Below, in pieces: positions 30,020 through 62,295 of a stretch of DNA of 64,000 nt. Position 1 is the first letter of the stretch, and each line of letters begins with the position of its first letter. The notes under the pieces are model-generated. The model saw only the letters and a list, made by a program, of their open reading frames with translations. It ran no database searches and was not told the DNA's origin. The translations under genes and the position numbers were made by a program. The DNA comes from Cenococcum geophilum (Eukaryota), in assembly GCA_050273025.1 (NCBI GenBank), contig CP158635.1, forward strand, positions 18,414,001-18,478,000, read 5' to 3'.

Positions 30020-32242
30020 CCCTTCGGCTGGTAAAATGGGTCCTACGGTTATCGATAAGAGCCAGCCAATAGAATCAATAAGATCAAGCCTCCGTGATGA
30101 GAAATATGAGGTCGTAGAAACTGTCGATATCTATATACAATTGCTATATACACTCAATCTTTAGAGCGGAGTCGCTCCAAATGAGGAAGCCAACACTTGT
30201 CCTTCCTACAGAACGGTATGTGGCAAACAGAGCAGCCATATAGAGTTTTTGGAGCTCTATGGCGCCTCCTCCAACTCTTACTATCGCGAGCTTTGCGAGT
30301 TGTATTTTGTGAGAGCTCTGAGAGAGGCTTTCTACGCCCTCTATGTTATACTTGAGTCTTCCTGCCGGTCTCTATATAAGCAGAGCAGAACTTCTGATCG
30401 CGTTGTATAAACAGCTTCACAAGCTTATAATCCTCTACCGGGTACCACAAAATATCACTTGTAGAGTAGCGCGTTGGCTTCTCCCGAATATACACTCGCG
30501 AGCGAGTTGATTGCTTAAAGAGAGCCTGCCGAAGATCCTTCCGAAACTGCTTATGTGTATCGCGAGTATTATTGGAGGAGGTGTAGGAGGAGAGTAAAAA
30601 GCAATTAATAAGAATAACGTTAAGTAGGAAGTGCTATAAAGGCTTCTAAGTCTTTATATGTGTCCGCTAAGTATTGTAATAAAATCGTCTTTGGTCTACT
30701 AGATCTACGCCTAGCATATAGTGATTATAGTTGTTTATGAAGGTAGGAATTGGCAGATTTTTAACGACGTTGTTACCGAATACCTTACGGGTTTGTTTAG
30801 TAGAGCTAGTAGTAAGAGCAGGACGCCGGCGAGAGGTAATAACTGATTTCTTCCCTATGGTGATATATGACGTCAGCGGGAAGTGTAAGAGAGAAGCAAG
30901 GTGGATTTCTTACCGTTGTCAATTGTACTCATAAAAAGGACGATTTAAGCGTCTTTCCAAGCAAACTCTATTACTTGTGAGTTCTTTGAGGTAGCTCCGT
31001 AGAGCGTGCCCCACGGTATCTAGGCTATATGGTAGAGCTTAAGATGAGAGAGTCTTTTATCGATTTGCTTAGCGGGGGTCTTCCTTCTGCTTCCTCCAGC
31101 GTTAATTAAGATATCGCCTTCGGAGTCACCTAGCTCCTCGCGCTTTGTTTTGGTTGTTCATACGGTGCCTGCACCTCTAATTCCTAATTGGCGAAGCCTT
31201 GTAAGAAGTTTAACACTTGTAAATAGATTGTCGAGCTAAATGACGTGACGCCCTAGAGAATAGAGAGGCTTATTCGTTTCTGAATCGCGCTGAGTGAGCA
31301 GATTAAGTATAACTGCCTGCGTCTTTGAAAAGCCTTCCTCCTTAGTAAATGTAGTATTAAGATCTACCGGGCCCTTTTTATCGCCTTTAGCGTGCCACAA
31401 CCAATTAAGGACGTAGCCCTCGTTAGCCAGCACCCAAATCTTAAAGCCTTCGGGCGTTAGTTTCAATGGAATATTAACAATTTCGGAAGCGCGTCCTATA
31501 AAGCGTTGGATCGTCTCGTTAACTACAAGGTAAGTTCCGGGGGTATAAAGCTTGCGACAGCTTAATCGGAGGTGTTCAGAAAGGTCGTTAACTCTATTAA
31601 ATGTAGTACATAATGTAGAATCGTCCTTTGGCCAAGGATCTATACACCTAAAATAGCGATTAAGCTGCTGAAATCTCACAAGGCCAATATAGTTTTTAAC
31701 TACATGGCCTGCGCCAGCTGGCTCTATATCGCCCCAGTAATCCTTAATGGCAGATTCTACGGTAATTCCCATATAAATCAGTACTCTAAAGTAGGCATAC
31801 AGTTCCTGCCTGTTTGTCGGTTTCCACTTACGCGTAAACTTAGCTTCCTCTGCAGGATAAAGCTCTATATATTTATTTATCCACTCTGCAAGCTTATCCA
31901 TAATATCATTAATAAAGAAGAGCTTAAATATAGCTAAGGGGTCGTGTAGATTAAGGTCGGGAGGAAGATTTGGGGTGCCATGGTCGTTAAAATTCGCGAT
32001 ATGCAAGGGCTCGAAGTAGGGTAACGGCCACGGCTGCGGGGGGGGTTCTTTTGCTTTCCGAGTCGGTGGAACTGAATATTGAGTCGGTCGAACAAAGTCT
32101 ATATCATTAGAAGTACGATTCGAAGGCATGGTTGAGAGAAATATATCATTGAATCTATGTAGGTCATACGCGTACTTTTGATTCTAGTGTTTTGGTGTTC
32201 TGCGCACGGTCCAATTCTCGTAGGACCCTACCAGCCGAAGGG
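30020..32242 (-). mobile_element. piggyBac DNA transposon, RIP-damaged
   Basis: TIRs CCCTTCGGCTGGTA(aaat)GGGTCCTACG / CGTAGGACCCTACCAGCCGAAGGG enclose the transposase remnant. Confidence 0.88.
30640..32129 (-). pseudogene. piggyBac transposase (DDE_Tnp_1_7-like), inactivated; 3' end approximate
   Basis: VVNETIQRFIGR (first catalytic D changed to N), PEGFKIWVLA, HVI*LDNLFTS (TGG to TAG at 31236-31238) and YNHYMLGVDLVDQRR near 30690-30730. Confidence 0.85.
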
Positions 32243-40000: not shown

Positions 40001-41885
40001 AAAATGTGCGTGGTTTGTCACGACGAGGCTTTCGTCTTCAGGACATCCAGTCCGAAGTCAGACGAATTCCAAAAGATATCTCGGACCTCTACTATAAACT
40101 TTTAAAAAGCATCAAAGAAGGACCACCCGAGGAACGGAGACGCTCTGTAAGGCTGTTGCAGTGGGTGTGCTTTGGATTCGAATCTCTGACTTTAATACAA
40201 CTCAGGGACGCATTAGCGATCGACCTGAGGGTTTATTACGATTCGCTGGCGGAGTCACTCAGACTGCGATGTTACAGATACTGTAGGTCGGATGCAACGT
40301 TGGCTGATTGACCTCTCGCGAGGCCTCGCTGAGCTGCGGGAACATGCTGGCCAGATGGTGGTACAATTCAATCACCAAACGGTCTACGGTTTTCTTAGGG
40401 ACAAAGGATTCCAAATCATAGAAGAGCCTTCCCGATTAGACATGAGCAGTTTGAGTCGAGTCTACCATGAGTTGGCCCGATGCTGCATCTTGTACTTTGC
40501 TACGAAAGAAATCCTATGGGCTACAGGACGGGATATTCCCAGTCTTAATAATTTCTTCAAAGGAAGGACAGATCTAGTTGACGATGCGAGCGAAGATATG
40601 CAAGTCGAGTTTGACGAAATTGAAATCAAAAGCGGAACGGAACACTCCGTAAGCACCGCATTGTCCTTGGCTCCGACTCTAGCGGGTTCCATAAGTGAAT
40701 CTGCACTGTCGGGGGATCCGAATGACGTAGAAATAATGATTAAGAGTTACCCTTTCATATCATACTCAACCGAATATTGGTTAGATTATGCTGAACTAGC
40801 GGAAAGGAACGGCATCTCGCAGGAGAATCTGCTAAAATACTTTCGTTGGCCTTCGGATCAGATTCTGCGCCACTGGATAAGAATGCGGCAGCACGTCTTC
40901 TCTGATCGTTCAGAAGCCGGACTAACGCTAATGCATATTGCGGCTAAACGTGGGCTTTTAAGTCTTTGTCGAGCAATAGCGGAGAAAGCAGAAACCAAAA
41001 AAGATGTGGACAAGCCCGATGACAATGGATGGACACTGCTGATGCATGCTGCCGCCTGCCAAAGCAGAGAGGCCATTGTGGAGTTCTTACTCAACCAGGG
41101 TGCGGATCCCAACACCAAAGATGGAGAGTGGGAAACGCCTCTTTTTAAGGTAACATCGCGAGGAGGTGAAGCCACTACAAGGTTGCTACTTGAACATGAT
41201 GCCGATCCGAATTTGGCGACATGGTCCAATGACACCGCTGTCAATAGCTGTCTTTTGGGAGCATGATGGCGTGCCGGTACTCCTCCTTAAGCAAGGTGCA
41301 GATCCCAATATCCTAGACGATGATGGCGAAACACCGCTGCTGCACGCAGCGCGAGGCAGGTCCTTCACGATTGCTCGCCAGCTCTTAAAATTCATAACAG
41401 ATCCGAACGGCGACCCACCTGCTTCTGAGACCCCACTTATCGTTGCGGTGAAACGGAAAGATCAACCTTTGATTGCCCTGCTCTTGAAGAAAGGCGCAGA
41501 TCCGGATCGAAGGGACGCCCAAGGCAGAACACCATTAGATTATGCTGTTCGACATGATTTCAGGGGTGCTGTGCAGATGCTGCTCGGGTACGGGGCGAAC
41601 CCAGGTTGTACCGACAAGTTGGGCCAAACCCCTCTTTTTCATGCAGCATCGTTTGGGCGTGTAGAGATAGCGCAGATCCTGCTTGCTGCAAAGGCTTCCC
41701 CAACTTTGGGTAGCTCTGATGGTAAGACACCATTGGAGCGGGCAGAGACTGCTGCAGAGGGCCTGAAGAAGGTGATAAGTGCGGACGAAAGCGCCCAGAG
41801 AGCAAGAATTCGCAAAACAATTTCGGTTTTAAAGGATCCTTCCAGAAAAACATATCAAGAAGACGACTTAGAACAGCTAAACTAG
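37067..41885 (+). pseudogene. Fungal NLR: SesB-like alpha/beta hydrolase - NACHT - ankyrin repeats, disrupted (5' end uncertain)
   Basis: Hydrolase motifs VDITFVHGLTG, MTFGYDADV, VHSLGGL and FLGTPHRG. Walker A LWIKGNAGSGKSTL and Walker B LVDALDGC. Many GxTPL..GADPN repeats. In-frame stops at ~38004, ~39158 and ~39982, and a frameshift near 41235. Confidence 0.85.
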
Positions 41886-43253
41886 CTGTCCCAGGCGATC
41901 GAGACAGTTTACCAATCTTTGGAAAAGTGGAAATGGATCAGATCACCTTGCTTGGCCTAGCACAGGGTCAGCCAGAATCAGCCGAGCAAAGGGCACATCT
42001 TGAAGCTACGTGGGAGATGAACATTGAAGATTTGCATCTCACTATTTCGCATGAAAATAGCCCAAAGGAAGAGTGAATTTCACAGTTTATAGGTCTCCAT
42101 CCACGCCAGCCATACTTTCTACAGGTCTTAAGTAAGTTACCAGGCCAGGATTTCCTTCAAAAGGTGTTTGAGCCTTGCTGGCCTTCCCGGTTGCTTGAAT
42201 GGTCATGGTCAAGCAATGGGGAACGGACTGAGTGTATTCTCAAATGTGGCTTATGAGTTCAGAAAAAGGTCAAATGTGTGAAACTTATTGTAGCTGCAGC
42301 GCGCATGCATGCTCAAAAGGATGACTCACGATAATATTTCCCATTCGTGGAAACCATCCTGGCGCTTAAAGAATTACGCAACCAAGACGAAGTGTTGAAC
42401 GCCAATTGGCGCCAAAAGGACCGGTCCTATTGGCAGCGCCAATTAGGACAATATATAGCCTCAAATTCCGGTCGACATGACCTAACTTTGATATAGTAGT
42501 AACCGACGCCAGGCCGACAGTAGCCGACAGTAACCGCCACTTGGTCGACACTAGCGGCTGAATTCGCTTTGAATGAGTGCCGATCCCAATCGTTAGAGGT
42601 TTATTGGCGACTTTGTATATATAGTCATCCTTCATAGTTCAATCTACCCACGAGGTCGTTGTTTCTGATTGGGTAATTCCGTCCAACAGGCAGTGAGAAG
42701 ATACGGTTGCACTTGCAAATGGTAAAAATGCGAAAAATGCGGAATCTCTAACAGCTATCGAAGTACTAACGGACAGCGATACCTCATAGAAAGTAAGGCG
42801 GTGGATCAAAGATACGGTGGTGAAGATAATGCCCATTGCTACGCTAGATGCCTTTAGCGTGCTCAGAGGTACCACGGCACTTTTATAAACGCTCCAGCAT
42901 TTGCCGCTGGAAAAGCTGCTAGTGCATACGCGGTTGACGTTGGCTGTTTAGCCTATTGGACAGTTACGACCCAATCACGCACTTGACTTAAATCTAAGGA
43001 ACCGTTAGCCTGGTGTCATATAAAGATTCCGAAGACTACTAAAAACAATGTTAGATAGGAAACTAATCGATTAATAGATTGTTTTAAGAAAAGTGGCTAG
43101 GACTGCCTTCAAGATATCTGTCGTAATTCGTTCTAAAGATGCCTTTTCAAAAGCTTAAAAGCAGATGCCAATACAAGTTTTAAGTCTCTAAAACTGCAAA
43201 AAAATCTCTCTGGCAGGTCAGGGCAGATTAAGAGAAAAGATTTACATCTACTC

Positions 43254-43258
43254 AAAAA
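43254..43258 (-). terminator. Pol III terminator (T5) of the tRNA-Pro gene
   Basis: TTTTT on the minus strand, 5 nt past the discriminator base. Confidence 0.7.
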
Positions 43259-43263
43259 TTAAG

Positions 43264-43454
43264 GGGTCTTGCCGCGATTCGAACGCGGGGCCTCTGTCGA
43301 GCATGTAAGTGTGACGTTCAGTTTGTAAGTCGGTACCAAACTTACCTCGCATTTAACTCAGGTTCACCCTAAGCTGTGAAATTTATTAATGGTACTGTCA
43401 TTTACAGTAATAATGATTAACCTACCGAGAATCATACCACTAGACCACAAGACC
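43264..43454 (-). tRNA. tRNA-Pro(AGG) interrupted by two spliceosomal-type introns (43374-43425, 43294-43345) and one canonical tRNA intron (43352-43366)
   Basis: The spliced product is GGTCTTG TG GTCT AGTGGTA TGAT T CTCG|C TT AGG G|T GCGAG|AGGCC CCGCG TTCGAAT CGCGG CAAGACC C. The acceptor, anticodon and T stems pair perfectly, and the A and B boxes are intact. Confidence 0.93.
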
Positions 43455-45642
43455 GTTTTATGCTGATTGGACAGCGGAAATTATAATTATTTAATATATC
43501 AACACGAAAGCTTCCGAGATGTGTGTCTCGCTTGTGCCCCAAGAACAACAAGCCACCACTGCCAGCTGCCTAACGTTGCTCTATTCCTCCACCTTACTCT
43601 TTATAATTCATTTCAATCCCATTTAACCCCACTCAGTAATTTATAGCTATAGTTAGTTATAGATATTTAGTAAAGTCTAGCAATGCTAACTCTAAAAAGT
43701 CTTGCTTAATGAAAATTAAACACTTATAGCTAGCTCCCTTGCTAACGATCTACTCTCCCTTATTTTATTATTAACTACCTTTATAGGAGATAGACTATAA
43801 TTATAACATTTATATTCTAATTAATCTATTAAATACTATATAGAACTATATATAATGGGGTTATAGACAGGCGTGGCACTAAGTTTATTAAAGTAATATA
43901 ATTATAACAAAGCCTTATAGCAGGAACTATAGTAAACTTATTAATGGGCTAGGTATATAGGTAAATAAGAAGTTAATAATGTAATAATAACTAGTGGAGT
44001 GGTTGCCTAATAGATTAACTCTAATTATATTCTAAGATTTACTACAAAAAGAAGAACTATCTAGGTAGGGATTATAGTCCTTTAAATACATAACCGATTA
44101 TTCTTAACGGGAAGAGCACTTAAGTAGTTTAAACCTTACCTTACGGAAATGCAAGAATATAGTATAATAACCACTAACTAGGAGGTCCGGTATATATTCT
44201 TAAGTTAAAATAGGTTCGTGGAATAATTAACGCAAATATTTAGAGACCTAGAGGCAATTATAATAGTAAAAAGAAAGCTTTAAAACCTAGTATAAAGGAC
44301 TTTAGCAATTAAGTATATAACGCAGTTTTAAATATTAGTAATATAGGTTAAATAGAACAATAAGGCGCTTATAGTATAGTATAAATAGGGACTTAAGGCA
44401 AAAGTCTAAAATATAATTATTCTAATAGAAGATACGGATACTCTTAGGAATTTAATTAATTAAGTAATTAAGATCGATAATAGGATCTACTAAAGAGAGC
44501 AGACTAAGAAGGGTTAGGATAGAGTTCCATAGTTATATAAGGCGCAAAATACGCAATAATAAAGTTAAAGTTAAAAACTATAGTATAGCGCAGAGCTAAT
44601 AGACCTAAGTAGTACTAAAGAATTTAAAAAATAGAATAAATAATTATAGAAACCTAGAGGACAAGGATTAAGTAATTAAAGGTCTAAAAAGTAAAGGCTA
44701 AACTAGGGATCTTAATAGTAGAAGACATTTAGGCGGACTCTATAGTAAGAAAAATAGTTTAAAAAAGGAGCTTATATAAATTACGGAAAATAGGGTTATT
44801 ACGTTAAAGACTATAAGAGTAGTTAGAATTATTATATAGTAAAAGAAATAAGACTAGTAGAAGATATATATATATAGAGGAATAATAGTATACTATAAGG
44901 AACAAAAGAATATTTAATTAACAGTTTTGCGTTTTGTTATAATAACGTATACTAAATTTATAAAGATGCTAAGTACGGCGTAAGCTATTGGCCATAAGAG
45001 CTAAAATTATTAGAGTTTAGAGGAACTAACAAACTAGTTTATAGATCGGATATTAAGGACAATAAGTTTAATATAGGCGAAACATTTAATAATAATAAGG
45101 TAATAAAGGCAGCTTACTAAGAGTATATAAACCTCGGAGATATTATATAAGAGGTAGAGGATAATTCTACTATAGAATAGGGAATATTAGTAGGGATTAA
45201 GACCCCACTAGATATAATATCTATCGCTTTATAAGATATAAGAGAAGTAGGATAATAGACTACTTTAGTACTTAATAAAGGCAAAAGGCTATAAGCTTAA
45301 GACTCTTAAGACGAGATATAAGATGACTAAGATTCTTAAAATAAGATAAGGTAAGCTTAAGGACCTATAATAGACAATAACCGATAGAGCAAAGTAATAG
45401 CTTAGTTTAGTAATATATAAATAAGCTTAGGACAAAGTTTCCTAAAAACATAAGACTCTTAAGACGAGATAAAAACTCTAAGTAAGCCTAGTAGGACTAA
45501 GACTAGAGCAAAGCTTAAGATAAAAGTAAGCTTAGGATTAAGAATCTTATAGGACTAAGATTTTAGCAATAGAATAAGAACTATTAAAGAAATTACGAGT
45601 AAGGCTTAGTAATAGGATTAAAGTATTAACACCAAGATTAAG

Positions 45643-48020
45643 CAGGGTGGTTTTGGATAATGCGAATAAGCGAGCATAAAATATCCTTTATCCAATAGAA
45701 TATGTATAAATATCGCAATTAATAAGGATAAAAGTGCCCTGTGCGGAGCTTTTCTACCCCAACCAAGTAGAATAGGACTCGATTCTAGCAGAATTTAGCA
45801 GATACTGCAGATATTGCGGATATTATAGATATTGCGGATATTGCAGATATTATAGATATTGCGGATATCGCAGATATTGCGGGTACTGCGGATATTGCGG
45901 ATATTATAGATAGGCGTAAGGTATTATAGGGTCCCTATCTACCTTTCCCCCTAACTATATAATAGCTATATACTTAGAGAAAAATTACCTATTTCTCTTA
46001 TAGTTCTTCTTTAATGCCAATTCTTTAAACACTTTATTTTCTTAAGAGTTTTAGGAACTATCTACATTCTCTCCCATAATACTATATAACGTCCTCCTAA
46101 AAAGACTCTTTCTAGCTTATCACTTATTGCTGGAATTAAGAGAATTTTGATTGCTATAAGTGAGAGCTATGGCCAGCGTTTTCGTTACTGTTCTTAAGAC
46201 CACCACTGAAGTGCAGTTATTAAAATCTTATATAGCGTCTTAGAGATAAAGTCCTTATACTCGTCCTGACTTTTTAGTCGAAACATTATACTATTAAGAT
46301 CCTTGGCAATCTTATTAAACTTATTAAGGTCTTAAGCTAGAGCTAGCTTTTTGTATAATGATATACTTCTAGGCGTAGAACTCCTATTCCGATATCTTTC
46401 CTAAAGCTCTTTAACGTTGTTAAGTGCAGGCTTACGCCACTCCTTCTTCTAAACCTGCTTAATATATCTCATATAACGGGCTAGATAAAGAATAAGTGCA
46501 GCGGCGTAAAGGGGTGAGTTATCTGTTTTATGGTAATACCTATTAAAGGTATTCTAAGCATTTTTAATGCGTTTAGAGAACTCCTTATTAGATATATACT
46601 CCTTCTATTATATATTAGCTAGGAAATAAAAAGGGGAGATAGACTAACCTGGAATTTATTAAGGTGCTTAATTATAACGTCTATTATAAAAAGCATATTC
46701 TTAAGCGTTGCTTCGTGTCTTTGGCATTTTAGGGTTGCCTAGTAGAATATCTAAAGAAAGCTTTTTATTATACGAAGCGCCTCCTAGTCCTTTGGACTAA
46801 GATAGTCCTTTTTAAGCGTATTAAGGTTATACTTAGTATACGTATTAAGGGCAGACTCTTTCTAAATTACTATGCTAAGTATAAAATACTAGCTATTCTA
46901 TCTTATACGATTATTAAGCGGAATTATTCTCCCTATAAGACTTTTAAACTCCCTTATACGACCAGCTAAGCTGTGGGTGTGTATGGTAATATTATAAAGC
47001 TTTCTAAGTGCGCTAAGTTTCCAAAATAAATTACTTTTCTTTTTCTCCTCTTTTAGATCTAGCTCTTTTCCTTCTTTATATAACTTAATATTATTAAGAC
47101 TAATTAAGTTTTTAAAGAGGAAAGCCTATATAGCAAGGTTAAGAATATAACCCTAACAGCGGATCCGTTAGTAGACGGGATTCCATTTAATTCCTTCTTC
47201 CTAAAGAAGCCAGTCGCTTATCGTATAACAGAGCTTATTATTTATAGTATGGTTATTAAATATAACGGCACCTAGCTTTCGCGTAATCCCGTAGTCCTTA
47301 AGTACTAAAAGAAGAGTATTTTATTGCTCGTCCCTATTATAAGAGGCTACCATACAAAGGCCAAGAAGAGCGTTTGTAAGCTTTTCCTGGCTATTAATAA
47401 AATGGCCGCAAATTACAAGGAGAAGGTAATTATTTAGAGAGGTCCAGATATTAACGGAGAGATAAATACTTGTTAGTGTAGACTGCAGCCTCTTTTATAT
47501 AATATTCTTTTGCGATAGCTATAAGTTATAGATCTTTTTACTAACTGTTAAATGGGCTATAGTTATATAGCCGTCTACTTTAGGATTAATTAACTATAGA
47601 AGAACATGGAACTCTGGCCACTTAACTATCCAAAATAGTAAGTTTTGTATAATAATTAATATAATAAGGGCCTTATTAATAACTTCTTTATTTAGGACCG
47701 TTTGGAGTACTTTTAAATCTAGCTCTTCTGTCTCATTTTAAGATGACGCTTTAAGGTAAAGGTCTTTTAATTAATCCCGTATTACTTCTTTCGTATAACT
47801 AGTTTTAGGCTTAACTATAATGCCATGCTTTAACGCCAAGTAATTTTAGAAGTTAGAAGTTGACTATGCAGCGTATGACTTTGTGCAGTGTTTACAATAG
47901 AATAAAAGACGGGCTTTTTTATTTCGTACGGGCTTATTACTACCTAGTGGACGGGTATGCTCCTATGTCAAAAGAGCTGAGCGACCTCTTATATTTTTTG
48001 ATTTAGAGGTATTAATAGAG
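45643..48020 (-). mobile_element. hAT transposon fragment (3' end plus transposase remnant)
   Basis: Terminus CAGGGTGGTTTT resembles the TIR at 11516. 9-bp GATATTGCG subterminal repeats lie at 45800-45912. The minus strand reads LSVNIWTSLNNYLLLVICGHF and the dimerisation motif WP*LSLIAIKILLIPAISDKLERVF. Confidence 0.82.
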
Positions 48021-49375
48021 TTAAGAGCTTCTGATTCCACTTCTAAAGCCATATTTTATACGATAATAAAGAAGAAAAAGGCGACGAAAATTTATTTGGG
48101 GTATGCCAAGACTTATCGCGATAAGATTTATCCAAAACCACCCTAAGATTAAGAAGTAAGATAACTTTAAGAATTTATCTACGAGATGCAAACCAAAAGA
48201 AACTATAAAAGAATTTAGATAGAGAATTATTATATAGCAAGAATAGAAACTAGATAAGAGATTTAATATACTAGGTTGTATAAGGGATAGAGTATTAGTA
48301 TAAAGAATTACTAATAGGCCTAGGATAGGCATACTAAGAGCTAAGTAGCTTACTAAACTAAAAAACGAAGAGGATTTAGGAATCCTTACTAGATTTAAAG
48401 AACAATATATAAAGGATTATTATAATATAGTAATAAGAAGATACTTCCTTACGGATAAGCTGTATATACTTTAGTAGCTATACTAAAAGTAGTATAGACA
48501 ACGACACAATAATAAGTAGGAAGATTTCTATATATAGCTAGATAAGTAAGTTATCTAAGACTACCCGATTATAGAGAAGGCCATAACTTATATTAAAGAA
48601 GCCTTAATTATAACGTTAAAGGATTTAAAGAAATAATTAGAGGACTGGAGAAGCGAAAGACGTATCTTAGTACCTACAAATAAAGTCATAACGTTTAGAT
48701 TAATACGGTAAATATTTAAACTTAAAAATAAAGACGAGTTAAGAGTTAACCTAAAGCACCTAGTATACTATACGCTATTATAGATTATATATATAGATAA
48801 TATATATAAAATGCATAAAAACCTAAAGGAAAAGAATCGGAAATACCCTATAAGGATATATTAGGCGCTAGATAAGCAATAGTATAGAAATACTAAGTAT
48901 ATATATAGCTGACATTTAATAGAAGTTTAAGAGTTAGGAAACTTAATACTTTAACTAAAAAGATTCTTTATAGAAGAATACTTAAATAGATAATAGTGGT
49001 AGGAATACCTAAAGAATACGTATCTATAGTATATTAAAGACAAAAAGCGAACTAGGTATTAGCTAAAGAGTAAGCTAAGTATAATAGGATTAAGCAGCTA
49101 ATAGTTAGGAAAAGTAGAGGCCTATAGAACTAGAGGGAGCCAGTAGTAAAGCCTTAAACCCTTAAAGGAATTTAAGAACAACACCTAGATTTATAAGTTA
49201 ATTAGCAAGATTAGCAGTTTAAAGCACTAATAGATAGTAAAGTAACGCGAAACTATATCTTACTAGCAGTAGTTAAGAGAATAGGATTACCTTATAGATA
49301 AAAGGAGTAACTTTACCTACTAGTTATAAATTTAGGAGATCTAATAGCCTATAAAGGAGGTATTATTAATCTTAA

Positions 49376-52300
49376 TAGATACATTAATTTAGAGCTCTTG
49401 CTGCACCCGGCCCAAAAAGACTAAAACCAACCAAAAGAACCCTAAAAAACACCTAGAGAATCCCCCTAAGATGTATGCATCGCAGGGGAGGCACACGTTA
49501 AATGACGGTGGTTTGTACTTGCGCGCGTCCACCAGATCCACGCCTAGCAATGGCCCTCTATAACAAGAATGGGCGAATACTACACCATAAAGCGGAAAGA
49601 CCTCTATTAAGAAGGCATCTAATAAAATATAAAGCCTATTAGACGCGTCTAGTATCCGCAGTTATGGGGGAGTAACCGTTAGCTATAATAAACTAATACA
49701 GCTAGTAGAATAGCTCCGCTAGCCTAGCGAACCTTAGGCGCCCCTCTAGCAAACCCTTAATTAAATCCTCTAACAGCTAAGCAAAATTAAAAATAAATAA
49801 AACCCCTTTTTACCGGCGAACCGCACCTAGGCCACCGTAGCTGTGTATTTATAGTATAGGAAACTTACCCCCCTAAAAACAATATCTAGGTATATAATTA
49901 CAATATAACTAAACATAGAAAAAGTAGAGGGGCTTAGGGGATAATTAGAAACAGAAGTCCTTACGGAGATTCGTAAAGAGGTCTATAACGCTATTATAGT
50001 TTATAGTCCGATACCTTAGAAGCGAAGACATTAGAGTTACCCTAAGGGACCAATAGGTAAAGGAATGAGCCGTTAGGGCAGGGGATAGGCTAGGAGAACG
50101 TATTAGCATAAAAGTACTCCGCGAAGATTACCCAGTTAAAGTCCTAGTGGTTCCCCTAAGCCTTAGGGTAGAAAAGGGACACTAGGCGGATAATACAGTA
50201 ACTATATATAAGATAGTAAAACAAACGGAACGCCTTATACTAGGACTTAAAATTACCTAAATCTAATAGCTTTAATAGGAAAATACAAACTAAGTATATA
50301 ATAAGAATAATAAAAAAATATAAGGGTCGCTAGAGACTCGCTAGAGAAACGCTAGTTAAACGTATAGCTCCCTTATTATTAGCACACATATACTAGGAAT
50401 GTAAAAACTCCTTATTTAAAAAGGTATTATTATAAATGGCCTTATATATAACGCAAGGCTCTATAACCACAGACTACGCCTAAAATAATACTATCGCTAT
50501 ATATAATAGGGGCATACCCAATTCATATACGCGGTGTAGGTATGCTGCGGCTACTATACAGGCCCCTATAATACAAGACACTGCTTAGATTAAGACTAAA
50601 TAAAATGCGTAAACTGCCACTAAAGCATACATAAGGCGTGGGAGAGAGAAAACTGTATTAAATACAGGAGACGGAAGGTAAGGGCTTAACAGCTACAGGA
50701 ATAACTGCACGCTAGGTTATATAAATAGAAATAACAGGCAATAAGCTAAGGGGGCGTAGGTGCCTTTCTAGCGTTTCCTACCTTTAATACTAGGGGGCTA
50801 GGCTAGCTATTCCAAGCCTTAACAGGCCAGAAGTAACGCCGCGTGATATTACTAGACCGTATAGGGATATAAGGGAGAGAACGCCCTATAGGAAGACCCT
50901 TATAGACAGCTATAGCAAGCTTAAGACCGGGACAATTAAGAATTAGACTTAACGCGGCAAATATAATATTCGCAGCCAACTCCTAAAGGGTATATAGCTA
51001 ACTAGTAAGAATAGGGGAAGAACTAAAGATAATAATAGATTTAGATATAGAAGCGCTAGTAGAAACACAAGATATAGGAATAAAAAGCTCTATATAAAAT
51101 AAGTAGTAACCAGGGTGTAGATATAAAAGACAGAAGTTTTAAATATCTTAGAGAAAGTGGAAATAAAAGAAGTAAGGAATAATAGAGAGGCGAAGGACCC
51201 TCATTGGGGGTCCGCTACCTATCCATTATATAGTATAACTGTAGTAACACAAACCACCGTCTTATAAGGCCCTTACTAGACAGTTTAGACCTAGAGAAAT
51301 ACTATATCCTTACTATATAAGAGCCGTACTATAATACCTACATATAATTAATATACTGCCCCTAAGGATTCCAGCTCCTATATAATCCAAAAGCAGCTAT
51401 ACGCATATACTTTATAATTAGTAAGACTATTAGCTTGTCCTTATAGTTATAACAGGCAGTTAATTTAGATATTATAGTTATAACAATCTAGATATATAGA
51501 GGACCGGTATAAATCATTAATATATATAACCCTAGGGTTAAAGGGGTCCCATAAATAGAGAATATTATATTAGTAATAAGCTTACTTAAAACCAAAGGCA
51601 CAGAGTCTATCCTATTAGGAGACATAAACCTCTACTACCCGCAGTAGGGGGGTATCTATATTACTGCTAAATAACAGGTAGAGTGCCTACTAAAAGCTAT
51701 AAATACCTAGGGGCTTAAGCTGGTCACCCCCCCTAAAGCAATTATATAGCAATAAGGATCCGCTAAAAGTATAATTAACCTTATATTTATGGACGAAGGC
51801 CTATACTAAAGACTTAAAAGGTGCAACCCTAAAGAAGAATAGGCACTTACTTTAGACTATATCCCCATCTAGATACAGCTAGATTTGGACATTAAGGCGT
51901 AACTAAATAGCAAAAGATACGCAATAAGAATGCTTAAGGCAGATAGTTTCCTTAATATAGTTAAATAACAACTTTAAGACCTAGAAGAAATCCACCTAAT
52001 ACTAAATAAGCAAGGCTTATTAGCTACCTCTAAGGAAATCAACTAAAGACTAGAAAGGATTTAGGCAGCAATTAAAAATGGGCTAGAAGAGTACTGCCCG
52101 GTCTTAAGACTAGACCCCTATACGTAATACGTATAGTCTGTATAATACGCGGTTCTTATAGCTAGCTAATAATAAGTAAGAAGGAAATACTTAAGTAGCT
52201 ATAACCCTAAAGATAAGAGACGATATAAAGACACAAGAAACCAGTTAAAGAATACCCTAAAAAAAGAAGCAAGAAATAACTAGAAACAATTTATAAATAA

Positions 52301-54917
52301 GTATACTTTTAACCCGAGCCTCCCCTATAATAAGGGCCTGTAGGCTATAGTAAAATAGGTAAAGAAAAAGGCAGGGCGATTAGTAGAAGACTTATACTTA
52401 CTACCCCTATAAAGAGCAGGGGAATTATAGGCCACTAATAATAACAATAAGAAGGTAAAGATCCTTATAGAAAGGTTCTTCCCTTAACCGGCTCTAGTAG
52501 ACCTTAGTAATATTACGGGTAAAGCACCGGTAACCTACCTATAGGTTAACAGCGATATAACAATAGAGGAAATAGCCAGAACTATTAGCCGCCTTTTAAA
52601 TAATATAGTACTGGGCCTAGATAGGATTCTAAATAAGGCCTTAAAGACCTATAGACCACTTATAGCACCCTAGCTTACAGATATAGCCAAAGTATACTTT
52701 ACTATAGGCTACTACCCACGACTCGGAAGATCTATAACGACGGTTATCCTATAAAAAAAAGGTAAAGCAGATTACTTAATCCCAGGAAGCTACCGCCCTA
52801 TTACTTTAAAAAACACCCTTAGCAAAATCTTAAAAAAGGTAATAGCGGACCGCATAGTAAACACGGCTAAGGAACACGCCCTACTACTACAGAGCTAAAT
52901 AGGGGCAAGAAAGAACCGCTTAATACTATTAGCACTTACGCTACTCGCTACCACCATTAAATCTACATAGGCGATGCGAAGGGACTTTGTAGTATTAATG
53001 CTTAGCCTAGATATTAGTAGCACCTACAACAATATACCCCACAAGCGTCTTCTATATATCCTTAGGGCAAAAGGCTTCCTAGAATAGATTATATAATTTA
53101 TCTAAGGATTTATAGATTAGAAAGAAATATTACTAGTTTTTAGCGGATACTAAAGCCCCCCTATTGCAGTTATAACAGGAATACTATAAGGATTACCCCT
53201 CTCGCCTATACTCTTCCTTTTCTTTATAAGCAACCTACTTAACTCCTTTAAGGAAGGGGCAACCTAGGGGATAGGCTTTATTAACGACACAAACCTAATT
53301 ATATACGGGCCATCAGCCGTAAAGAACTGTAGAATGCTAGAGAAAGCTTATAACACCTATATAGAATAGGCAAGACGATATAGAGTCCAATTCTTATTAG
53401 AGAAATACCAGCTAATCCATTTTATAAGAAAACGCAACCAATCTATAGATCTTTAGCATATAATCCGCATCTAAGGCTTTAGGGGTTAACCAGTTTAGGG
53501 CCTAAGGATATTAGGAGTATAGGTAGATAGTAAGCTCTAGTGGAGCGTATATATAGCGTAAGCGGCCTATAAGGGCTAAGTATAGTATATTGTATTATTT
53601 AGGATCGTCAATTCTATATAGGGCCTATGCTTCTAGAGGTTACGCCTACTATATACAGCAGTTGTCCGGCCAACTATAATATATAGGTCTAGTATTTGGG
53701 CCATTAGAGAATCTAAGAAAGGCCCCCCTAAGTCGCTCCTTAAACCACTCTAAAAGGTCTAAATAGCTTACCTTTAGAGTATAATAGGCGGATATAAGCG
53801 AACGGCCACAGCACTGCTTAAGAAGGAAGCCAATATTCCCCCCCTATAACTATATATTAAAGCCGCTGTAATATAAAGGGCCCAAAATAAACGCAACTCT
53901 AATATTATAAAGTATATTAAGACGCGCCTAAATAAACTATAGAGGGACCCTAGGGTGCCCTATAGGAGAATAAACTAATAACCCTAAAGTAGGGAAGATA
54001 TATTAGAGAAATAGGTAAAGAAAGCAGAAGAAAAATAGTGCTACTTTAGGGCCCAGGCCCACATAGAGGAGGAAGAAAGACGCGTAAGAGGCTAGTAAAG
54101 ATAATAGTAAGAGAGAAAAAGGAGCTAAAGTAGAGTATAAAAGAACGCTAGGAAACTATCTACTATAATATAATACTAGTTAGACCAACGCTAGAGAGGT
54201 ATATAGAAGTTAAAGGTATAGAGGCTAACTAAAATAAGAGAAACCTAAGCCGTAGCATAGTTAACGCTATAAGGGGTAAACACTCTAAGGCTCTAAGAAG
54301 GCCTAATAAAGGTAGAAAATATAATGGCGATACTCTTAAAAATAGAAATAATAGGATTAAAAGACTAGCTCTACCGGGTGGGCGTCCTAGTAGGTAGCCT
54401 AAGATATAAATATGGCTGGCTAAGATAGACACCAAAACACGTAATACTGTTATGCCCCTTACACACTAACTAAAAAGTAATACTTTTAGTAGCTAGTATA
54501 GAGAACTATAATACACTACTCTTAATATAAAAAGGCCTTAAGGCGGTTACCTAGTAGCTTATTAGCTAAAATATATTAAACCAGTTCTAAGTTATAAGGG
54601 AAATAGTAATAAAGGGTAAGGGGGCGAGCAACAGGCGCCCCCTAATGACTCTATAGTAGTAGAGTAAAGTTTACAACACTAGCGCGTCTATAGGCTTATT
54701 ACGGTAGCAGTAGTTCCTAAAGAGGTTAAAAAGTAAGGTAGTAGAAGCACTATAAGTGACTTATAGGCGCCTTATAGGCGCCTTATAGGCGAGTCCTAAA
54801 AGGCGGGGAGATAGATTACGGGGTTTTCTCAAATAGAGTTTTCTCCCCATATGTATATAAGGAGTAGTCCGCGTAGGCCCAATAGGGATCCGAATCAGAC
54901 GTTAAGCAATAAATTAT
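49376..54917 (+). mobile_element. Near full-length Tad1-like LINE inserted in the Gypsy protease region
   Basis: 15-bp TSD TATTATTAATCTTAA (49361-49375 and 54918-54932). ORF1 has cysteine-knuckle remnants (~50480-50680). APE motifs I*YNCSNTN and LLGDINLYYPQ*GG; RT motifs YRPITLKNTLSKIL, GLPLSPILFLFF and GFINDTNL. Confidence 0.9.
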
Positions 54918-57900
54918 TATTATTAATCTTAAAACAGGACCTATTTAGATAACTATTAAAAGAAGACAAATTAAAATATCTTTTAATATCCTACCATTAG
55001 GACAGGATAAGGCAGTATTAAAAATGCCTTAGTTATAGGAATATAACCTAAAAATTAATTAAATTATAGGATAGGTTAATATTAGAAATACTTAACGCTA
55101 TAAGATATAATAGTAAACTAAGTTAGTATAGTACTAAGTTAGAGTAATATATAAAGAGATTAAGCGAAGCTTAAGTTATATACTAAAGAAATACCATAAG
55201 TATAGCAAAAAGCTATAGTTACTAAAAAGTAAAAAGCTGGCAGATTATATAGTATAGGATTATAAGATAGAGTTAGAACTAGGAATAAGTCTAAGGTTCT
55301 TTCCAACCTATAAGCTTACTTAAGAAGAGGTAAGTATACTTAAAGAGTTTATCTAGGAAAACTTATAAAAAAGATATATTAAACCATTGTAGTTATTAGC
55401 AGGTTATCTAGTACTATTCATACTAAAGAAAAATAAAAAGCTTAGGTTATACATTAACTATAAATAGTTAAACAGTATTACTTAAAAGGATAGGTATCCT
55501 TTACCCTTAATTAGCGAAATCCAAGATCGGATAGGTAATGCGCAAATCTCTATAAGGATAGATTTAAAATAGGCGTACCATTAAATTAGAATTAAGGAAG
55601 GCGATAAATAGGAGGCAGCCTTTAGGTTAAGAGAAGGACTATATAAGCTATTAGTTATACAATTCAGATTAACAAATACATTAGTAACGTTTTATAAATA
55701 AATTAATAGTATATTAGGAGAACACCTTAATAAGTTTATTATAGCATACCTTAACAATATTATTATCTACTTAATAACTAAGAAAGAATATAGGAAATAT
55801 ATTAAATAGGTCTTAAGAAGACTATAAGAAGAATAAATGTTAGTAGCAATTAAGAAATGCGAGTTCTTTACTAGGAAGACCAATTTTGTCGGATTTATTA
55901 TTAAACTAGGTCATATTAGTATAGACCTAAAGAAAATTAAAGCTATAGTGAGCTGGCAAGAATTAGAGAATATAATATAGTTAAGGTTATTTTTAGGGGT
56001 TTATAACTACTATAGAAGGTTTATAGTATAATAGTTAAAGAATATTAAACTATTTACTAGGCTTATAAAGAAAGAGAAACTATAGGTATAGGGAAATAAA
56101 CAAAGAAAGTTATTTAAAGAACTTAAGGAGTTATTTACCTAGGAGCCAATTCTTAAAATCTATTAACTAGAACTAGATATAGTTATAGAGATAAATATAT
56201 TAGACTACGTACTAGAAGTATATTTATTATAGAAACATAAAGACGTATAGTATCCAGTAGCATACTATAGTAGGAAGATAATACTACTAAAGTTAAACTA
56301 TAACGTTTATAATAAGGAGTTATTAGATATAATTATAGTACTTAAAGAATAAAGAGTATTCTTATAAGGCGTAGAAAAACTATTTATAGCTAAAATAGAT
56401 TATAAGAACCTAATGGGGTTCCTAATAATAAAAAAACTTAATTAAAGATAAGTTAAATAGGTAAAGATGCTTACAGAATACCATTTTAAGATTTAGTATA
56501 CTAAAGGAACTAAGAATATAAGAGCAGGTGCACTTAGTAGAAAGGCTAAACTATAAAATAATAAGAAACTATTTAGAGTAATACTACGCAGAAACTAAGA
56601 TGGATTAATTAAATATAATTACCCTAAGCTAGTAATAACTTAAGAGGATAATAAACTAGAAAGAGTCTATAAAACACTAGAAAGCTTTTAGGTATAAAGG
56701 ATTTTTAAGGTATAGCTAAAAGAACAGTTAGAGCACCTAGAGGAAGAAATATTATATAAGTATAGAGAGGCAAAGTATATCCCAAGAAGCATAGCGGAGT
56801 ACTTTATAAAGGATTTCTATAAGGGGATAACTTAAGGATATAATAGAGCTATAGGCTTAGTGTTAAGGCTTTAAGAGGAGTACATTATTAACGGAATCTA
56901 GGGCTTAGCGCGAAAAGTTATAAAGGAATGTTTAAATTATTAAAGAAATAAACTAATGAGGTATAAGCCATATAAAGGGCTATAACCTATTAAAATACCA
57001 GAGAGACTATAGGAGGTCATATTATAGGACTTTATTATTAAGTTACTAAAGTTAAGAGGTTCTATTACCGGATAAGATTATAACGTAATCTTAGTAATAG
57101 TAGATAAGTTAACTAAATAGGGCTACTTTATAGCATATACAGAAGAAATCTTAGTAGAAGATATTACTAAAATCTATATTAAAGAAGTGTTTATAAGACA
57201 TAGAGCACTAAGTAAGATTATATTAGATAGAGATTTAAGATTTATAGCAGCATTTTAGGAAGTATTCTTAGCAAAGTAAAGAGTTAGAGTAGTAACTTCT
57301 ACCGTATATTACCTGCAGACAGACGGTTAAATAGAAAGATTAAATTAGACACTAGAGCAGTATCTAAGATATTATATTAATCACGCATAAAATAATTAGG
57401 TATTACTATTACTAGTTATATAGTTTATATACAATATAACACTATAGGAAGAAATAGGCATATTACCATTTAAGGTAAATTATGGATATAAACTAAGAAT
57501 ATCGTTGTTACTATAATAAGTAAAGAAAATAAGTAGCATAGCTAAAGAAAGAATAAAGACGTTAATAAATCTTTATATAGACCTTATAGAATTAGTAAAG
57601 AAAGTATAAAAAAAAATAAAAAGGTACTATAATACTAAGAGATCTAAGGGACTAAATCTTAAGGAGGGAGATAAAGTATAGCTACTATATAAAAATTTTA
57701 AGAGTTAACAACTAAGTAAGAAGTTAGACTACGTTAGACTAGGACCTTTTATAATTATATAAAGAATTTTACTAGTTATATTTAAGTTAAACTTACTAGC
57801 TAAGATAAAGATCTACCCTATACAGCATATTATAATGCTAAAGCTAGTATATAGGAATATTAAGCTACTAGTTTATAAAGCAGACACGTATAGAGGATAA

Positions 57901-62000: not shown

Positions 62001-62280
62001 TTATTTATCTCCCTATACCTATAATTCCTCTTTCTTTATAAGCCTGGTAAATAGTTTAATATTCTTTAACTATTATGTTATAAACTTTTTATAGTAGTTA
62101 TAAAACCCTAAAAATAACCTTAACTATATTATATTCCCTAGCTCCTACTAACTTACTATAGCTTTAATTTTCTTTAGGTCTATACTAATATAACTTAGTT
62201 TAATAATAAATCTAATAAAATCGGTCTTCCTTATAAAGAACTTTTATTTCTTAATTACTACTAGCATCTATTCTTCCTTA
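59020..62280 (-). mobile_element. Ty3/Gypsy copy B (same family as copy A, inverted): RT end, RNase H, IN, chromodomain, partial LTR (59217-59351) and a gag fragment (59020-59216)
   Basis: Reverse complement of ~55825-58930. The segment 59020-59216 is the reverse complement of ~43903-44095. Confidence 0.87.
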
Positions 62281-62295
62281 GTTATTAAGTAAATA

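What the first reader, a model, noticed from the sequence alone, without database searches (positions are those of the whole stretch)
43264..43454. tRNA-Pro(AGG) gene split by two spliceosomal (GT..AG) introns in addition to a normal tRNA intron
Seen on the minus strand: exon 1 GGTCTTGTGGTCTAGTGGTATGATTCTCG; intron 1 GTAGGT...CATTAAT...TTTCACAG (43425-43374); middle exon CTTAGGG[tgaacctgagttaaa]TGCGAG; intron 2 GTAAGT...ACTTAC..CTCGACAG (43345-43294); last exon AGGCCCCGCGTTCGAATCGCGGCAAGACCC; then T5. Cutting exactly at GT and AG restores a flawless eukaryotic tRNA-Pro. One intron sits in the 5' strand of the anticodon stem and the other at the anticodon stem/variable loop junction. Established: nuclear tRNA introns are removed by the TSEN endonuclease at position 37/38. 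Fungal spliceosomal introns are known in snRNA genes (e.g. S. pombe U6) and ascomycete rDNA, but I know of no established case in tRNA genes. Inference: this tRNA matures through both the spliceosome and TSEN, and standard tRNA finders would probably miss it. The perfectly paired exons argue for function rather than decay.
Basis: partly seen in the sequence, partly recalled or inferred. Interest (0 to 1): 0.96.

Follow-up and report, generated by a model that had tools for sequence, protein, structure and literature searches.

The report
Proline tRNA gene with mRNA-type introns
A fungal proline tRNA gene is cut up by two short introns of the kind found in protein-coding genes plus one ordinary tRNA intron, and public RNA data show both mRNA-type introns removed exactly as predicted, which I found described for no tRNA in the papers I could search.

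Summary
On the minus strand, 43454-43264, three exon blocks are separated by two 52-nt GT..AG inserts. Removing them in silico gives a flawless 72-nt tRNA-Pro(AGG) with a 15-nt intron at the canonical 37/38 site.

One metatranscriptome contig, identical to the window, joins 43293 to 43346. It then runs from 43374 into the last 11 letters of exon 1. So both GT-AG introns are gone, while the canonical intron and 168 nt of 3' trailer remain.

A diverged copy (L009) keeps exons and canonical intron 87/87, while the two introns are only 84-85% identical, with changes in their interiors. Two copies from another fungus (L016, L032) carry an intron at the same 30/31 site, with GTAAGT and TACTAAC. They carry a further intron inside the A box, placed 1 nt apart yet giving the same product.

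There is no bulge-helix-bulge motif. ARAGORN and Rfam miss or mislabel the gene.

Best reading: a spliceosome-dependent tRNA gene. Mature tRNA, the polymerase used and the absence of intact copies are not shown. This scan noted similar genes for other tRNAs in other fungal genomes. Eight literature searches found no report.

The parts
43455..43520 (-). 5' leader of 66 nt with a TATA-like run (about -47 to -30). It is the conserved part of the upstream flank.
   Evidence: 61 of 66 positions are identical to L009, and homology stops abruptly at -66. The sequence was read.
43426..43454 (-). Exon 1: tRNA positions 1-30 (acceptor 5' strand, D arm with an intact A-box-like TGGTCTAGTGG, and the first 4 nt of the anticodon stem).
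   Evidence: 29/29 identical in L007 and L009. Its last 11 letters are the loose end of the spliced RNA contig.
43374..43425 (-). Intron 1: 52 nt, GTAGGT...ATTAAT...CACAG, at tRNA position 30/31.
   Evidence: It is absent from RNA contig record 2 of run X9, which runs from 43374 straight into exon 1 letters. L009 has 55 nt here with the same first 13 and last 10 nt and CTAAT in place of TTAAT.
43367..43373 (-). Exon 2a: positions 31-37 (CTTAGGG, anticodon AGG).
   Evidence: ARAGORN. 7/7 identical in L009.
43352..43366 (-). Canonical tRNA-type intron: 15 nt at 37/38. It holds CCT, complementary to the anticodon.
   Evidence: ARAGORN places it at 37/38. It is retained in the spliced RNA contig. 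15/15 identical in L009.
43346..43351 (-). Exon 2b: positions 38-43 (3' strand of the anticodon stem).
   Evidence: 6/6 identical.
43294..43345 (-). Intron 2: 52 nt, GAG|GTAAGT...ACTTAC...GACAG, at tRNA position 43/44.
   Evidence: One search lists the joint 43293>43346, 'skips 52, CT..AC' on the + strand, in one RNA contig at depth 4.3 with 29 letters on the shorter side. L009 has 49 nt here with the 5' end and a 16-nt block around ACTTAC unchanged.
43264..43293 (-). Exon 3: positions 44-73 (variable loop, T arm with a B-box-like GTTCGAATC, acceptor 3' strand, discriminator C).
   Evidence: 30/30 identical in L009.
43254..43258 (-). T5 run, 5 nt after the discriminator (Pol III terminator-like). 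A T7 run follows at 43198-43204.
   Evidence: T5 is kept in L007 and L009. The RNA contig runs through both T runs.
42934..43263 (-). 3' trailer of 330 nt, conserved with L009. Its first 168 nt (43263-43096) are present in the spliced RNA contig.
   Evidence: Identity to L009 is 158/167 and 153/159, and similarity is lost beyond 42934. It has no ORF, no repeat in the window and no fold signal (z +0.61).

Best explanation
This is a working nuclear tRNA-Pro(AGG) gene of a Dothideomycete fungus. Its precursor must be spliced twice by the ordinary U2-type spliceosome before it can fold into a tRNA.

Proposed steps:
1. The gene is transcribed into a precursor carrying a leader, three intervening sequences and a trailer.
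2. The spliceosome removes the two about 52-nt GT-AG introns at positions 30/31 and 43/44. Both interrupt or abut the anticodon stem, so that stem cannot form before they are removed.
3. The re-formed anticodon stem presents the 15-nt intron at 37/38 to the tRNA splicing endonuclease and ligase.
4. RNase P and RNase Z trim the ends and CCA is added.

Shown here: the gene anatomy; precise removal of both GT-AG introns in RNA, with the canonical intron and trailer still attached; and conservation of exons and splice signals in relatives.

Inferred: TSEN action, end trimming, a functional mature tRNA, and the polymerase. On the polymerase I am undecided, about 50:50. One option is Pol III transcripts spliced as in fission-yeast U6. 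The other is a longer Pol II transcript from which the tRNA is cut out.
For: 1. In-silico removal gives a perfect cloverleaf tRNA-Pro(AGG) with a 37/38 intron. It is the only tRNA-like acceptor/T-arm pair in the window (1 candidate).

2. RNA evidence. 4 runs were laid: 2 RNA-contig runs, 1 RNA raw-read run and 1 DNA run. RNA run X9 gave a 238-nt contig with 0 differences and depth 4.3. It covers 43096-43293, skips exactly 43294-43345, covers 43346-43374, and ends in 11 letters that equal + strand 43427-43437. That string is unique in the window. X9 shows no depth over either intron interior.

3. Copy L009, from another metagenome: exons plus the canonical intron are 87/87 identical. Intron 1 is 44/52 identical with 3 gap columns, and intron 2 is 41/49 with 3 gap columns. 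The differences lie in the interiors, and the 5' splice sites, branch blocks and AG ends are kept.

4. Of the 120 loci fetched with the exon-1/GT junction pattern, 4 are tRNA-Pro genes. L016 and L032, from a more GC-rich fungus, have an intron at the same 30/31 site with GTAAGT, TACTAAC and CAG. They have a further intron in the D stem at 10/11 (L016, GTAAGT) or 9/10 (L032, GTGAGT). This 1-nt shift at both ends restores the same exon join only if the cuts are made at GT and AG.

5. The lengths, 49-57 nt, and the signals resemble this window's own protein-gene introns. These are Clp1 5503-5594 and Arb1 9409-9470, plus two heuristic ones of 53 and 54 nt.

6. There is no bulge-helix-bulge: 0-2 of 4 central-helix pairs at either placement of either intron.

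7. The order seen in the RNA (GT-AG introns removed first, 37/38 intron still present) is what the anatomy demands.
Against: - Splicing rests on one low-depth contig in one library. The second RNA-contig run (X10) laid nothing.
- The intron-1 junction is supported by only 11-12 letters.
- No mature tRNA was seen. The read tool drops human-like reads, so spliced tRNA reads could not appear.
- The 4 raw RNA reads of X23 (2 start places, 90-95% alike) carry intron 2 unspliced. They come from a diverged copy.
- The spliced RNA carries at least 168 nt of trailer through T5 and T7. A second contig covers -20 to -209 upstream. So the RNA observed may be a passing long transcript and not the productive precursor.
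- No genome is held, so I could not check whether intact Pro(AGG) genes exist.
- The window's branch sites (TTAAT, CTTAC) are off the CTRAY consensus.
- The trailer (95-96% identical to L009) is better conserved than the introns, which is unexplained. It might mean that selection acts on something other than the tRNA.
- My sample of this genome's own introns is very small: 2 backed by homology and 2 heuristic.
Confidence: 0.72

Rival explanations
1. This is a retired tRNA gene copy whose pieces now serve only as exons of a long non-coding Pol II transcript. The spliceosome removes the inserts from that transcript as a by-product. No tRNA is made from it, and intact Pro(AGG) genes elsewhere supply the cell.
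For: - The only spliced RNA seen has at least 168 nt of trailer running through T5 and T7, and there is RNA coverage from -20 to -209 upstream.
- Leader and trailer are conserved with L009 (92-96%), more than the introns.
- The existence of intact copies could not be tested.
Against: - 87/87 exon plus canonical-intron positions are kept against L009, while the introns differ at 16 positions plus 6 gap columns.
- A distant fungus keeps the same exons (28/29 in exon 1) and the same 30/31 site, with a compensating 1-nt intron slide between its two copies.
- Every stem is still perfect, and the A box, B box and T5 are kept.
- The trailer has no ORF, no structure signal and no repeat.
Confidence: 0.16
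2. The 'spliced' contig is not RNA splicing. It comes from DNA of a strain or allele that lacks both inserts, or it is an assembly artefact in the metatranscriptome.
For: The read-laying output itself warns that DNA can be present in an RNA library. The table of the joined form in other runs was not given. There is only one contig, at depth 4.3.
Against: - The contig is letter-identical to the window over 227 + 11 letters.
- It lacks exactly the two GT..AG segments yet keeps the 15-nt canonical intron.
- X9 shows no depth on the intron interiors, as contaminating DNA would give.
- The DNA run X1 and metagenome loci L007 and L009 all carry both inserts.
Confidence: 0.04
3. The two inserts are non-canonical tRNA introns cut by the tRNA splicing endonuclease at bulge-helix-bulge motifs, as in Archaea and the red alga Cyanidioschyzon.
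For: Multiple introns at non-37/38 sites in tRNA genes are known in those organisms (abstract of PMC3978253 as shown in the listing).
Against: - The central 4-bp helix has 0-2 of 4 pairs for both inserts at both placements.
- The boundaries follow GTRNGT...YAG, with branch-like motifs 9-12 nt from the end, in 5 gene copies.
- The 1-nt slide in L016/L032 tracks GT and AG.
- The RNA intermediate has these two inserts removed but the true endonuclease intron retained.
Confidence: 0.02

Closest known systems
mRNA-type (spliceosomal) introns in fungal snRNA genes: U6 of Schizosaccharomyces pombe (Tani and Ohshima 1989, 1991), and U2, U1 and U5 of Rhodotorula hasegawae (Takahashi et al. 1993, 1996). 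I saw these only as entries in the reference list of PMC5855946; their content is recalled.
   Same: A GT-AG intron sits inside a short, highly structured non-coding RNA gene. For U6 that gene is a Pol III gene, and the intron must be removed by the spliceosome before the RNA can work.
   Different: snRNAs sit in the spliceosome, so intron gain by reverse splicing at the catalytic centre is the usual explanation (recalled). A tRNA has no such link. Here there are two such introns plus an endonuclease-type intron in one gene, so two unrelated splicing systems act on one RNA.
Canonical eukaryotic nuclear tRNA introns (TSEN endonuclease plus ligase, at position 37/38). PMC12530127, passages read.
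   Same: The 15-nt insert at 43352-43366 fits this class: it lies at 37/38 and holds a stretch complementary to the anticodon.
   Different: The two 52-nt inserts lie at 30/31 and 43/44, have GT..AG ends and no bulge-helix-bulge. That paper treats spliceosomal and tRNA introns as unrelated classes and assigns the former to mRNAs and other Pol II transcripts.
Non-canonical and multiple bulge-helix-bulge introns, split and permuted tRNA genes of Archaea, Cyanidioschyzon merolae and nucleomorphs. PMC3978253, abstract start only (listing); my passage look-up failed.
   Same: tRNA genes are broken at several non-37/38 positions and missed by standard finders.
   Different: Those are cut by the tRNA endonuclease at BHB motifs. 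Here BHB was tested and not met, and the ends are spliceosomal.
tRNA or tRNA-like units cut out of Pol II transcripts by RNase P and RNase Z (MALAT1 mascRNA; engineered tRNA-guide RNA arrays). Recalled; no call.
   Same: If the long spliced RNA is productive, the tRNA would be released from a longer transcript in this way.
   Different: Those units carry no spliceosomal introns inside the tRNA body, and mascRNA is not a decoding tRNA.
Self-splicing group I introns in bacterial tRNA genes (Reinhold-Hurek and Shub 1992). Seen only as a reference-list entry of PMC13149111.
   Same: A non-endonuclease intron class lies inside a tRNA gene.
   Different: Those are ribozymes of hundreds of nt in the anticodon loop. 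The 52-nt inserts here are far too short (recalled size limits) and have GT..AG ends.

Membership tests
U2-type spliceosomal (GT-AG) intron | 5' splice site GT within an extended GTRNGT-type consensus | tested here: met
   The 5' ends are GTAGGT and GAG|GTAAGT in the window, identical in L007 and L009, and GTAAGT, GTGAGT and GTAAGT in L016 and L032.
U2-type spliceosomal (GT-AG) intron | 3' splice site YAG | tested here: met
   The 3' end is CAG in all 10 intron copies of the 5 gene copies examined.
U2-type spliceosomal (GT-AG) intron | Branch site CTRAY about 10-40 nt before the 3' end | tested here: inconclusive
   The window has TTAAT and CTTAC, each with 12 nt after the A; both are off consensus. 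L009 intron 1 has CTAAT at the same place. L016 and L032 have CTAAC and TACTAAC. The branch point itself was not mapped.
U2-type spliceosomal (GT-AG) intron | Precise excision at GT/AG in RNA | tested here: met
   One RNA contig, in 1 of 3 RNA runs laid, has the joint 43293>43346. It also continues from 43374 into exon 1 letters.
U2-type spliceosomal (GT-AG) intron | Lariat intermediate; dependence on snRNPs | not testable with these tools
   This needs lariat RT-PCR, or inhibition or mutation of the spliceosome.
U2-type spliceosomal (GT-AG) intron | Length and signals like the host genome's own introns | tested here: met
   The tRNA introns are 49-57 nt. The window's own introns are Clp1 92 nt and Arb1 62 nt, plus heuristic ones of 53 and 54 nt, all GTRNGT...YAG. 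The sample is small.
Endonuclease-type (TSEN/BHB) tRNA intron | Position 37/38, or a bulge-helix-bulge motif at the exon-intron boundaries | tested here: not met
   The two 52-nt inserts lie at 30/31 and 43/44, with 0-2 of 4 central-helix pairs. The 15-nt insert does sit at 37/38.
Eukaryotic nuclear tRNA gene (Pol III type 2) | Cloverleaf with conserved positions after removal of intervening sequences | tested here: met
   ARAGORN calls tRNA-Pro(AGG), 72 nt, with all stems paired.
Eukaryotic nuclear tRNA gene (Pol III type 2) | Intact internal A and B boxes at workable spacing, and a T-run terminator | tested here: inconclusive
   In the window the A-box-like and B-box-like motifs are intact but about 150 nt apart, and T5 follows. 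In L016 and L032 the A box is split by an intron. The box consensus is recalled.
Eukaryotic nuclear tRNA gene (Pol III type 2) | Pol III occupancy; a mature, aminoacylated tRNA | not testable with these tools
   No genome, ChIP or tRNA-seq data are available. Human-like reads are filtered in read laying.
Group I / group II self-splicing intron | Ribozyme core of hundreds of nt | tested here: not met
   The inserts are 52 nt. There was no Rfam intron hit in the window at E<=10.

The most novel reading that the evidence does not exclude
In this fungal lineage the tRNA-Pro(AGG) genes have left the classical Pol III regime. They are made as longer Pol II-type transcripts with conserved leader and trailer, and in relatives the A box is physically split by an intron. 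They are spliced by the spliceosome, and only then trimmed by RNase P/Z and TSEN. The supply of a major decoding tRNA would then depend on Pol II and on mRNA-type splicing. Together with this scan's notes on many other isoacceptors, this would mean that a sizeable part of the tRNA gene set of Pezizomycotina is invisible to current annotation.
Probability: 0.35. Interest if true: 0.97.

Novelty: new variant of a known kind. Interest (0 to 1): 0.88.

Why it matters
Textbooks and current reviews keep spliceosomal introns (mRNAs and other Pol II transcripts) and tRNA introns (endonuclease, position 37/38) apart as unrelated systems (PMC12530127, passages). A tRNA that needs both breaks that separation.

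It would tie translation capacity for proline codons to the spliceosome. It also raises a concrete question: are Pol III transcripts spliced here, or has a tRNA gene moved to Pol II?

It offers a natural system for studying intron gain in very short, highly constrained genes.

In practice, ARAGORN and Rfam miss or mislabel the gene. tRNA gene counts and codon-usage and tRNA-supply models for such fungi would therefore be wrong wherever this occurs.

Tried and rejected
- **Whole-genome checks.** I wanted to look for intact Pro(AGG) copies and other split tRNAs, but no genome is held. The records behind the metagenome loci are not held either.
- **Standard finders.** ARAGORN by default found 0 genes. 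Rfam found 0 at gathering and no tRNA among 6 weak hits at E<=10. ARAGORN with introns gave a wrong Cys(ACA) call.
- **BHB/TSEN reading.** Rejected. The positive control, the 15-nt intron, itself pairs only 2-3 of 4, so the test is weak for eukaryotes. Position and GT-AG ends carry the argument.
- **T-run depletion in the introns as a sign of Pol III.** Not significant: shuffles have T4+ in only 8-43% of cases.
- **Function of the conserved trailer.** It has no ORF, no copy elsewhere in the window, and a fold z of +0.61. It stays unexplained.
- **Introner-like repeat origin.** No second copy of either intron lies in the window.
- **Run X10.** Nothing was laid, which is no evidence either way.
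- **Ankyrin gene intron.** I looked for one as a further reference intron and found no convincing GT-AG candidate. One heuristic intron (5856-5912) was contradicted by the Clp1 protein alignment.
- **Scan notebook by place and by sequence.** Nothing was found.
- **Literature.** Eight full-text searches found no paper describing spliceosomal introns in tRNA genes. The library lacks most subscription journals, so this is not proof of absence.

Full report
**What is there**

| Part | Coordinates | Length | Notes |
|---|---|---|---|
| Exon 1 | 43454-43426 | 29 nt | |
| Intron 1 | 43425-43374 | 52 nt | GTAGGT...CACAG |
| Exon 2 | 43373-43346 | 28 nt | includes a 15-nt insert after G37 |
| Intron 2 | 43345-43294 | 52 nt | GTAAGT...GACAG |
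| Exon 3 | 43293-43264 | 30 nt | |
| T5 run | 43258-43254 | 5 nt | |
| T7 run | 43204-43198 | 7 nt | |

ARAGORN on the coordinate-joined exons calls a 72-nt tRNA-Pro(AGG) with a 15-nt intron at 37/38 and fully paired acceptor, anticodon and T stems. In standard numbering the two long inserts lie at 30/31, inside the 5' strand of the anticodon stem, and at 43/44, right after its 3' strand.

My own structural scan of both strands of the window looked for a T arm plus a complementary acceptor within 600 nt. It returned 1 candidate, this one.

Standard tools fail. ARAGORN by default finds 0 genes. With introns allowed it calls a false tRNA-Cys(ACA) with a 115-nt intron. Rfam finds nothing at the gathering score and no tRNA among 6 weak hits at E<=10.

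**Host**

No genome is held for the window. The window holds intron-bearing genes for Clp1, an inositol polyphosphate kinase, Arb1 and an ankyrin-repeat protein. The Clp1 piece is 84% identical to that of Lepidopterella palustris. The next named hits are Zopfia, Lophium and many Pleosporales, all Dothideomycetes (for the first). The runs that hold the stretch are labelled fungus or root metagenomes, or coded organisms.

**RNA evidence**

I laid four runs on 43000-43700.

- *DNA run X1.* It holds the whole stretch unspliced in one contig (0 differences, depth 89). It may be the source of the assembly.
- *Metatranscriptome run X9.* It gave two contigs with 0 differences.
  - Record 2 (238 nt, depth 4.3) covers 43096-43293 and skips exactly 52 nt. 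The tool lists this joint as 43293>43346, ends CT..AC on the + strand, which is GT..AG on the gene strand. It then covers 43346-43374 and ends in 11 loose letters.
  - Those letters equal + strand 43427-43437, the 3' end of exon 1, and occur once in the window.
  - So this RNA-library contig lacks both GT-AG introns. It still carries the 15-nt canonical intron and 168 nt of trailer, through T5 and T7.
  - X9 has no depth over either intron interior. That argues against contaminating DNA as the source.
  - Record 3 covers 43474-43663, upstream of the gene, at similar depth (4.5). Whether it belongs to the same molecule cannot be said. The tool warns that holes prove nothing and that human-like records are dropped, and exon 1 is a highly conserved tRNA sequence.
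- *Run X10.* Nothing was laid.
- *Raw-read RNA run X23.* It gave only 4 reads (2 start places, 90-95% alike).
  - They carry intron 2 unspliced, with two small insertions and two G>A changes. They diverge inside intron 1.
  - They therefore come from a third, diverged copy of the gene.
  - All four begin within 2 nt of the tRNA 3' end, with the first mate on the + strand. That would fit a 3'-trimmed but unspliced precursor, but four reads are weak evidence.

**Comparative evidence**

One metagenome scan used the exon-1/GT junction pattern. 116 are unrelated chance matches and 4 are tRNA-Pro genes.

- *L007.* Almost the window itself: 1 change in intron 1, and T8 in place of T7.
- *L009.* A diverged copy. 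Region by region:

| Region | Identity to the window |
|---|---|
| Leader, -66 to -1 | 61/66 |
| Exons plus canonical intron | 87/87 |
| Intron 1 | 44/52, plus 3 gap columns |
| Intron 2 | 41/49, plus 3 gap columns |
| Trailer, 1-168 | 158/167 |
| Trailer, 169-330 | 153/159 |
| Beyond -66 and beyond +330 | about 41-42%, i.e. unrelated |

  - Intron changes sit in the interiors. The first 13 nt of intron 1 and the first 7 nt of intron 2 are unchanged. So are the last 10 nt of intron 1 and a 16-nt block around the 3'-proximal ACTTAC of intron 2.
  - Where the window has TTAAT, L009 has the consensus-like CTAAT.
- *L016 and L032.* They come from a more GC-rich organism (0.47-0.48 against 0.38-0.40). 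They have the same exon 1 apart from one acceptor-stem letter.
  - They carry an intron at the same 30/31 site with textbook fungal signals (GTAAGT, TACTAAC, CAG; 51 nt).
  - They carry a further intron inside the D stem and A box. It is 51 nt at 10/11 in L016 (GTAAGT) and 57 nt at 9/10 in L032 (GTGAGT), both with CTAAC...CAG.
  - The two copies give the same joined exon only if each is cut at its own GT and AG. This compensating 1-nt slide is hard to explain by anything but selection for spliceosomal splicing to a correct tRNA.
  - After CTTAGGG both continue with a non-GT insert at 37/38, and there the contigs end. Their 3' halves were therefore not seen.

**Is it like this genome's own introns, and not an endonuclease intron?**

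- The Clp1 intron (5503-5594, 92 nt, GTGCGT...GCTGAC...ATAG) is placed by a tblastn alignment with P0003.
- The Arb1 intron (9409-9470, 62 nt, GTACGT...GCTAAC...ATAG) is placed by frame and Pfam continuity.
- Two ORF-bridging candidates of 53 and 54 nt start with GTAAGT.
- The tRNA introns (49-57 nt) fit this class. The sample is small, and one heuristic candidate was contradicted by the protein alignment.
- A formal bulge-helix-bulge check gives 0-2 of 4 central-helix pairs for both inserts at both possible placements. At 30/31 and 43/44 the eukaryotic endonuclease's measuring mechanism (recalled) would not apply either.

**How it most likely works**

Both long inserts break the anticodon stem, so the precursor cannot present the 37/38 intron to the endonuclease until the spliceosome has acted. 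The X9 intermediate shows exactly that order: GT-AG introns out, canonical intron in.

I therefore read this as a tRNA gene that needs two splicing systems in series. Ordinary end trimming would follow, but that is inferred.

The polymerase is open.

- *For Pol III in the window's copy.* The A-box-like and B-box-like motifs are intact, a TATA-like run lies at about -47 to -30, and T5 follows right after the gene and is kept in three copies. Fission-yeast U6 is the precedent for a spliced Pol III transcript (recalled; references seen).
- *For Pol II.* The spliced RNA runs through T5 and T7 for at least 168 nt, and there is coverage upstream to -209. Leader and trailer are better conserved than the introns. 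In L016 and L032 the A box is split and a 38-nt leader is identical between copies whose first intron has diverged.
- Library size selection would in any case favour long, rare forms, so the RNA seen need not be the main precursor.
- Absence of T4+ runs inside the introns is not significant.

**Rivals**

1. *A retired tRNA copy spliced only as part of a passing non-coding transcript (0.16).* It fits the long RNA. It does not fit the 87/87 exon conservation, the perfect stems, the same site in a distant fungus or the compensating slide.
2. *An intron-less DNA allele or an artefact behind the contig (0.04).* It is unlikely given letter identity to the window, retention of the canonical intron and no depth on the intron interiors.
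3. *Endonuclease-type non-canonical introns (0.02).* This fails the motif test and the order of removal.

**Known or new**

Eight full-text searches found no description of spliceosomal introns in tRNA genes. A 2025 paper that I read in passages treats spliceosomal and tRNA introns as unrelated classes. The library lacks most subscription journals, so absence in print is not proven.

The closest known case is the mRNA-type intron of fungal snRNA genes.

This scan's own notebook already holds similar readings for other tRNAs in other fungal genomes: Leu, His, Ser, Gln, Glu, Lys, Ile, Cys and Met. 20 notes in at least 10 genomes matched my words, and 14 distinct ones were shown. None is for tRNA-Pro and none for this genome. 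These are unchecked AI notes, and I did not test them.

What this case adds:
- an RNA intermediate with both introns removed and the canonical intron and trailer retained;
- the A-box-splitting intron with a 1-nt compensating slide in relatives;
- the leader and trailer conservation that puts the polymerase question on the table.

**Verdict**

I rate it a new variant of a known kind: spliceosomal introns in small structured RNA genes, here for the first time, as far as I could find, in a tRNA. Interest is high. The open points are the mature tRNA, intact paralogues, the branch points and the polymerase.

Noticed in passing
window 42934-43263 and 43455-43520 (minus strand) versus L009: The 66-nt leader (92% identical) and the 330-nt trailer (95-96%) are better conserved between the window and L009 than the two GT-AG introns (84-85%). 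Similarity stops abruptly at both ends of this unit of about 590 nt. The trailer has no ORF, no fold signal and no repeat in the window.
   Followed up: partly
L009 (reverse complement), gene region: Intron lengths changed to 55 and 49 nt, yet the gene is again exactly 191 nt, as in the window (52 + 52). This is possibly coincidence.
   Followed up: no
window 43263-43388, reads of run X23: Four RNA reads come from a third, diverged gene copy with small insertions in intron 2. All begin within 2 nt of the tRNA 3' end and still carry intron 2. This hints at 3'-trimmed but unspliced precursors, and at a multi-copy family that keeps this intron.
   Followed up: partly
L016 486-525 and L032 (reverse complement) same region: The two gene copies of the second fungus share an identical 38-nt C/A-rich leader directly upstream of the tRNA. 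Their first intron has diverged and the DNA further upstream is unrelated.
   Followed up: partly
window 14000-28000 and 44000-64000: These are long AT-rich, ORF-poor blocks (GC 0.24-0.38, against 0.45-0.54 in the gene-bearing parts). They look like decayed repeat DNA. The tRNA gene sits at the edge of one.
   Followed up: no
window 40229-41885 (+): An ankyrin-repeat gene is read in two overlapping frames (switch near 41154-41266). No convincing GT-AG intron restores the frame, so it may carry a frameshift or be a pseudogene.
   Followed up: partly
window 31236-32129 (-): An ORF matches the DDE_Tnp_1_7 transposase family (E 6e-29), probably a DNA transposon remnant.
   Followed up: no
window 4680-6217 (+): A Clp1 (polynucleotide 5'-hydroxyl-kinase family) gene with one 92-nt intron lies in the same window. 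There is no sign of a functional link to the tRNA gene.
   Followed up: partly
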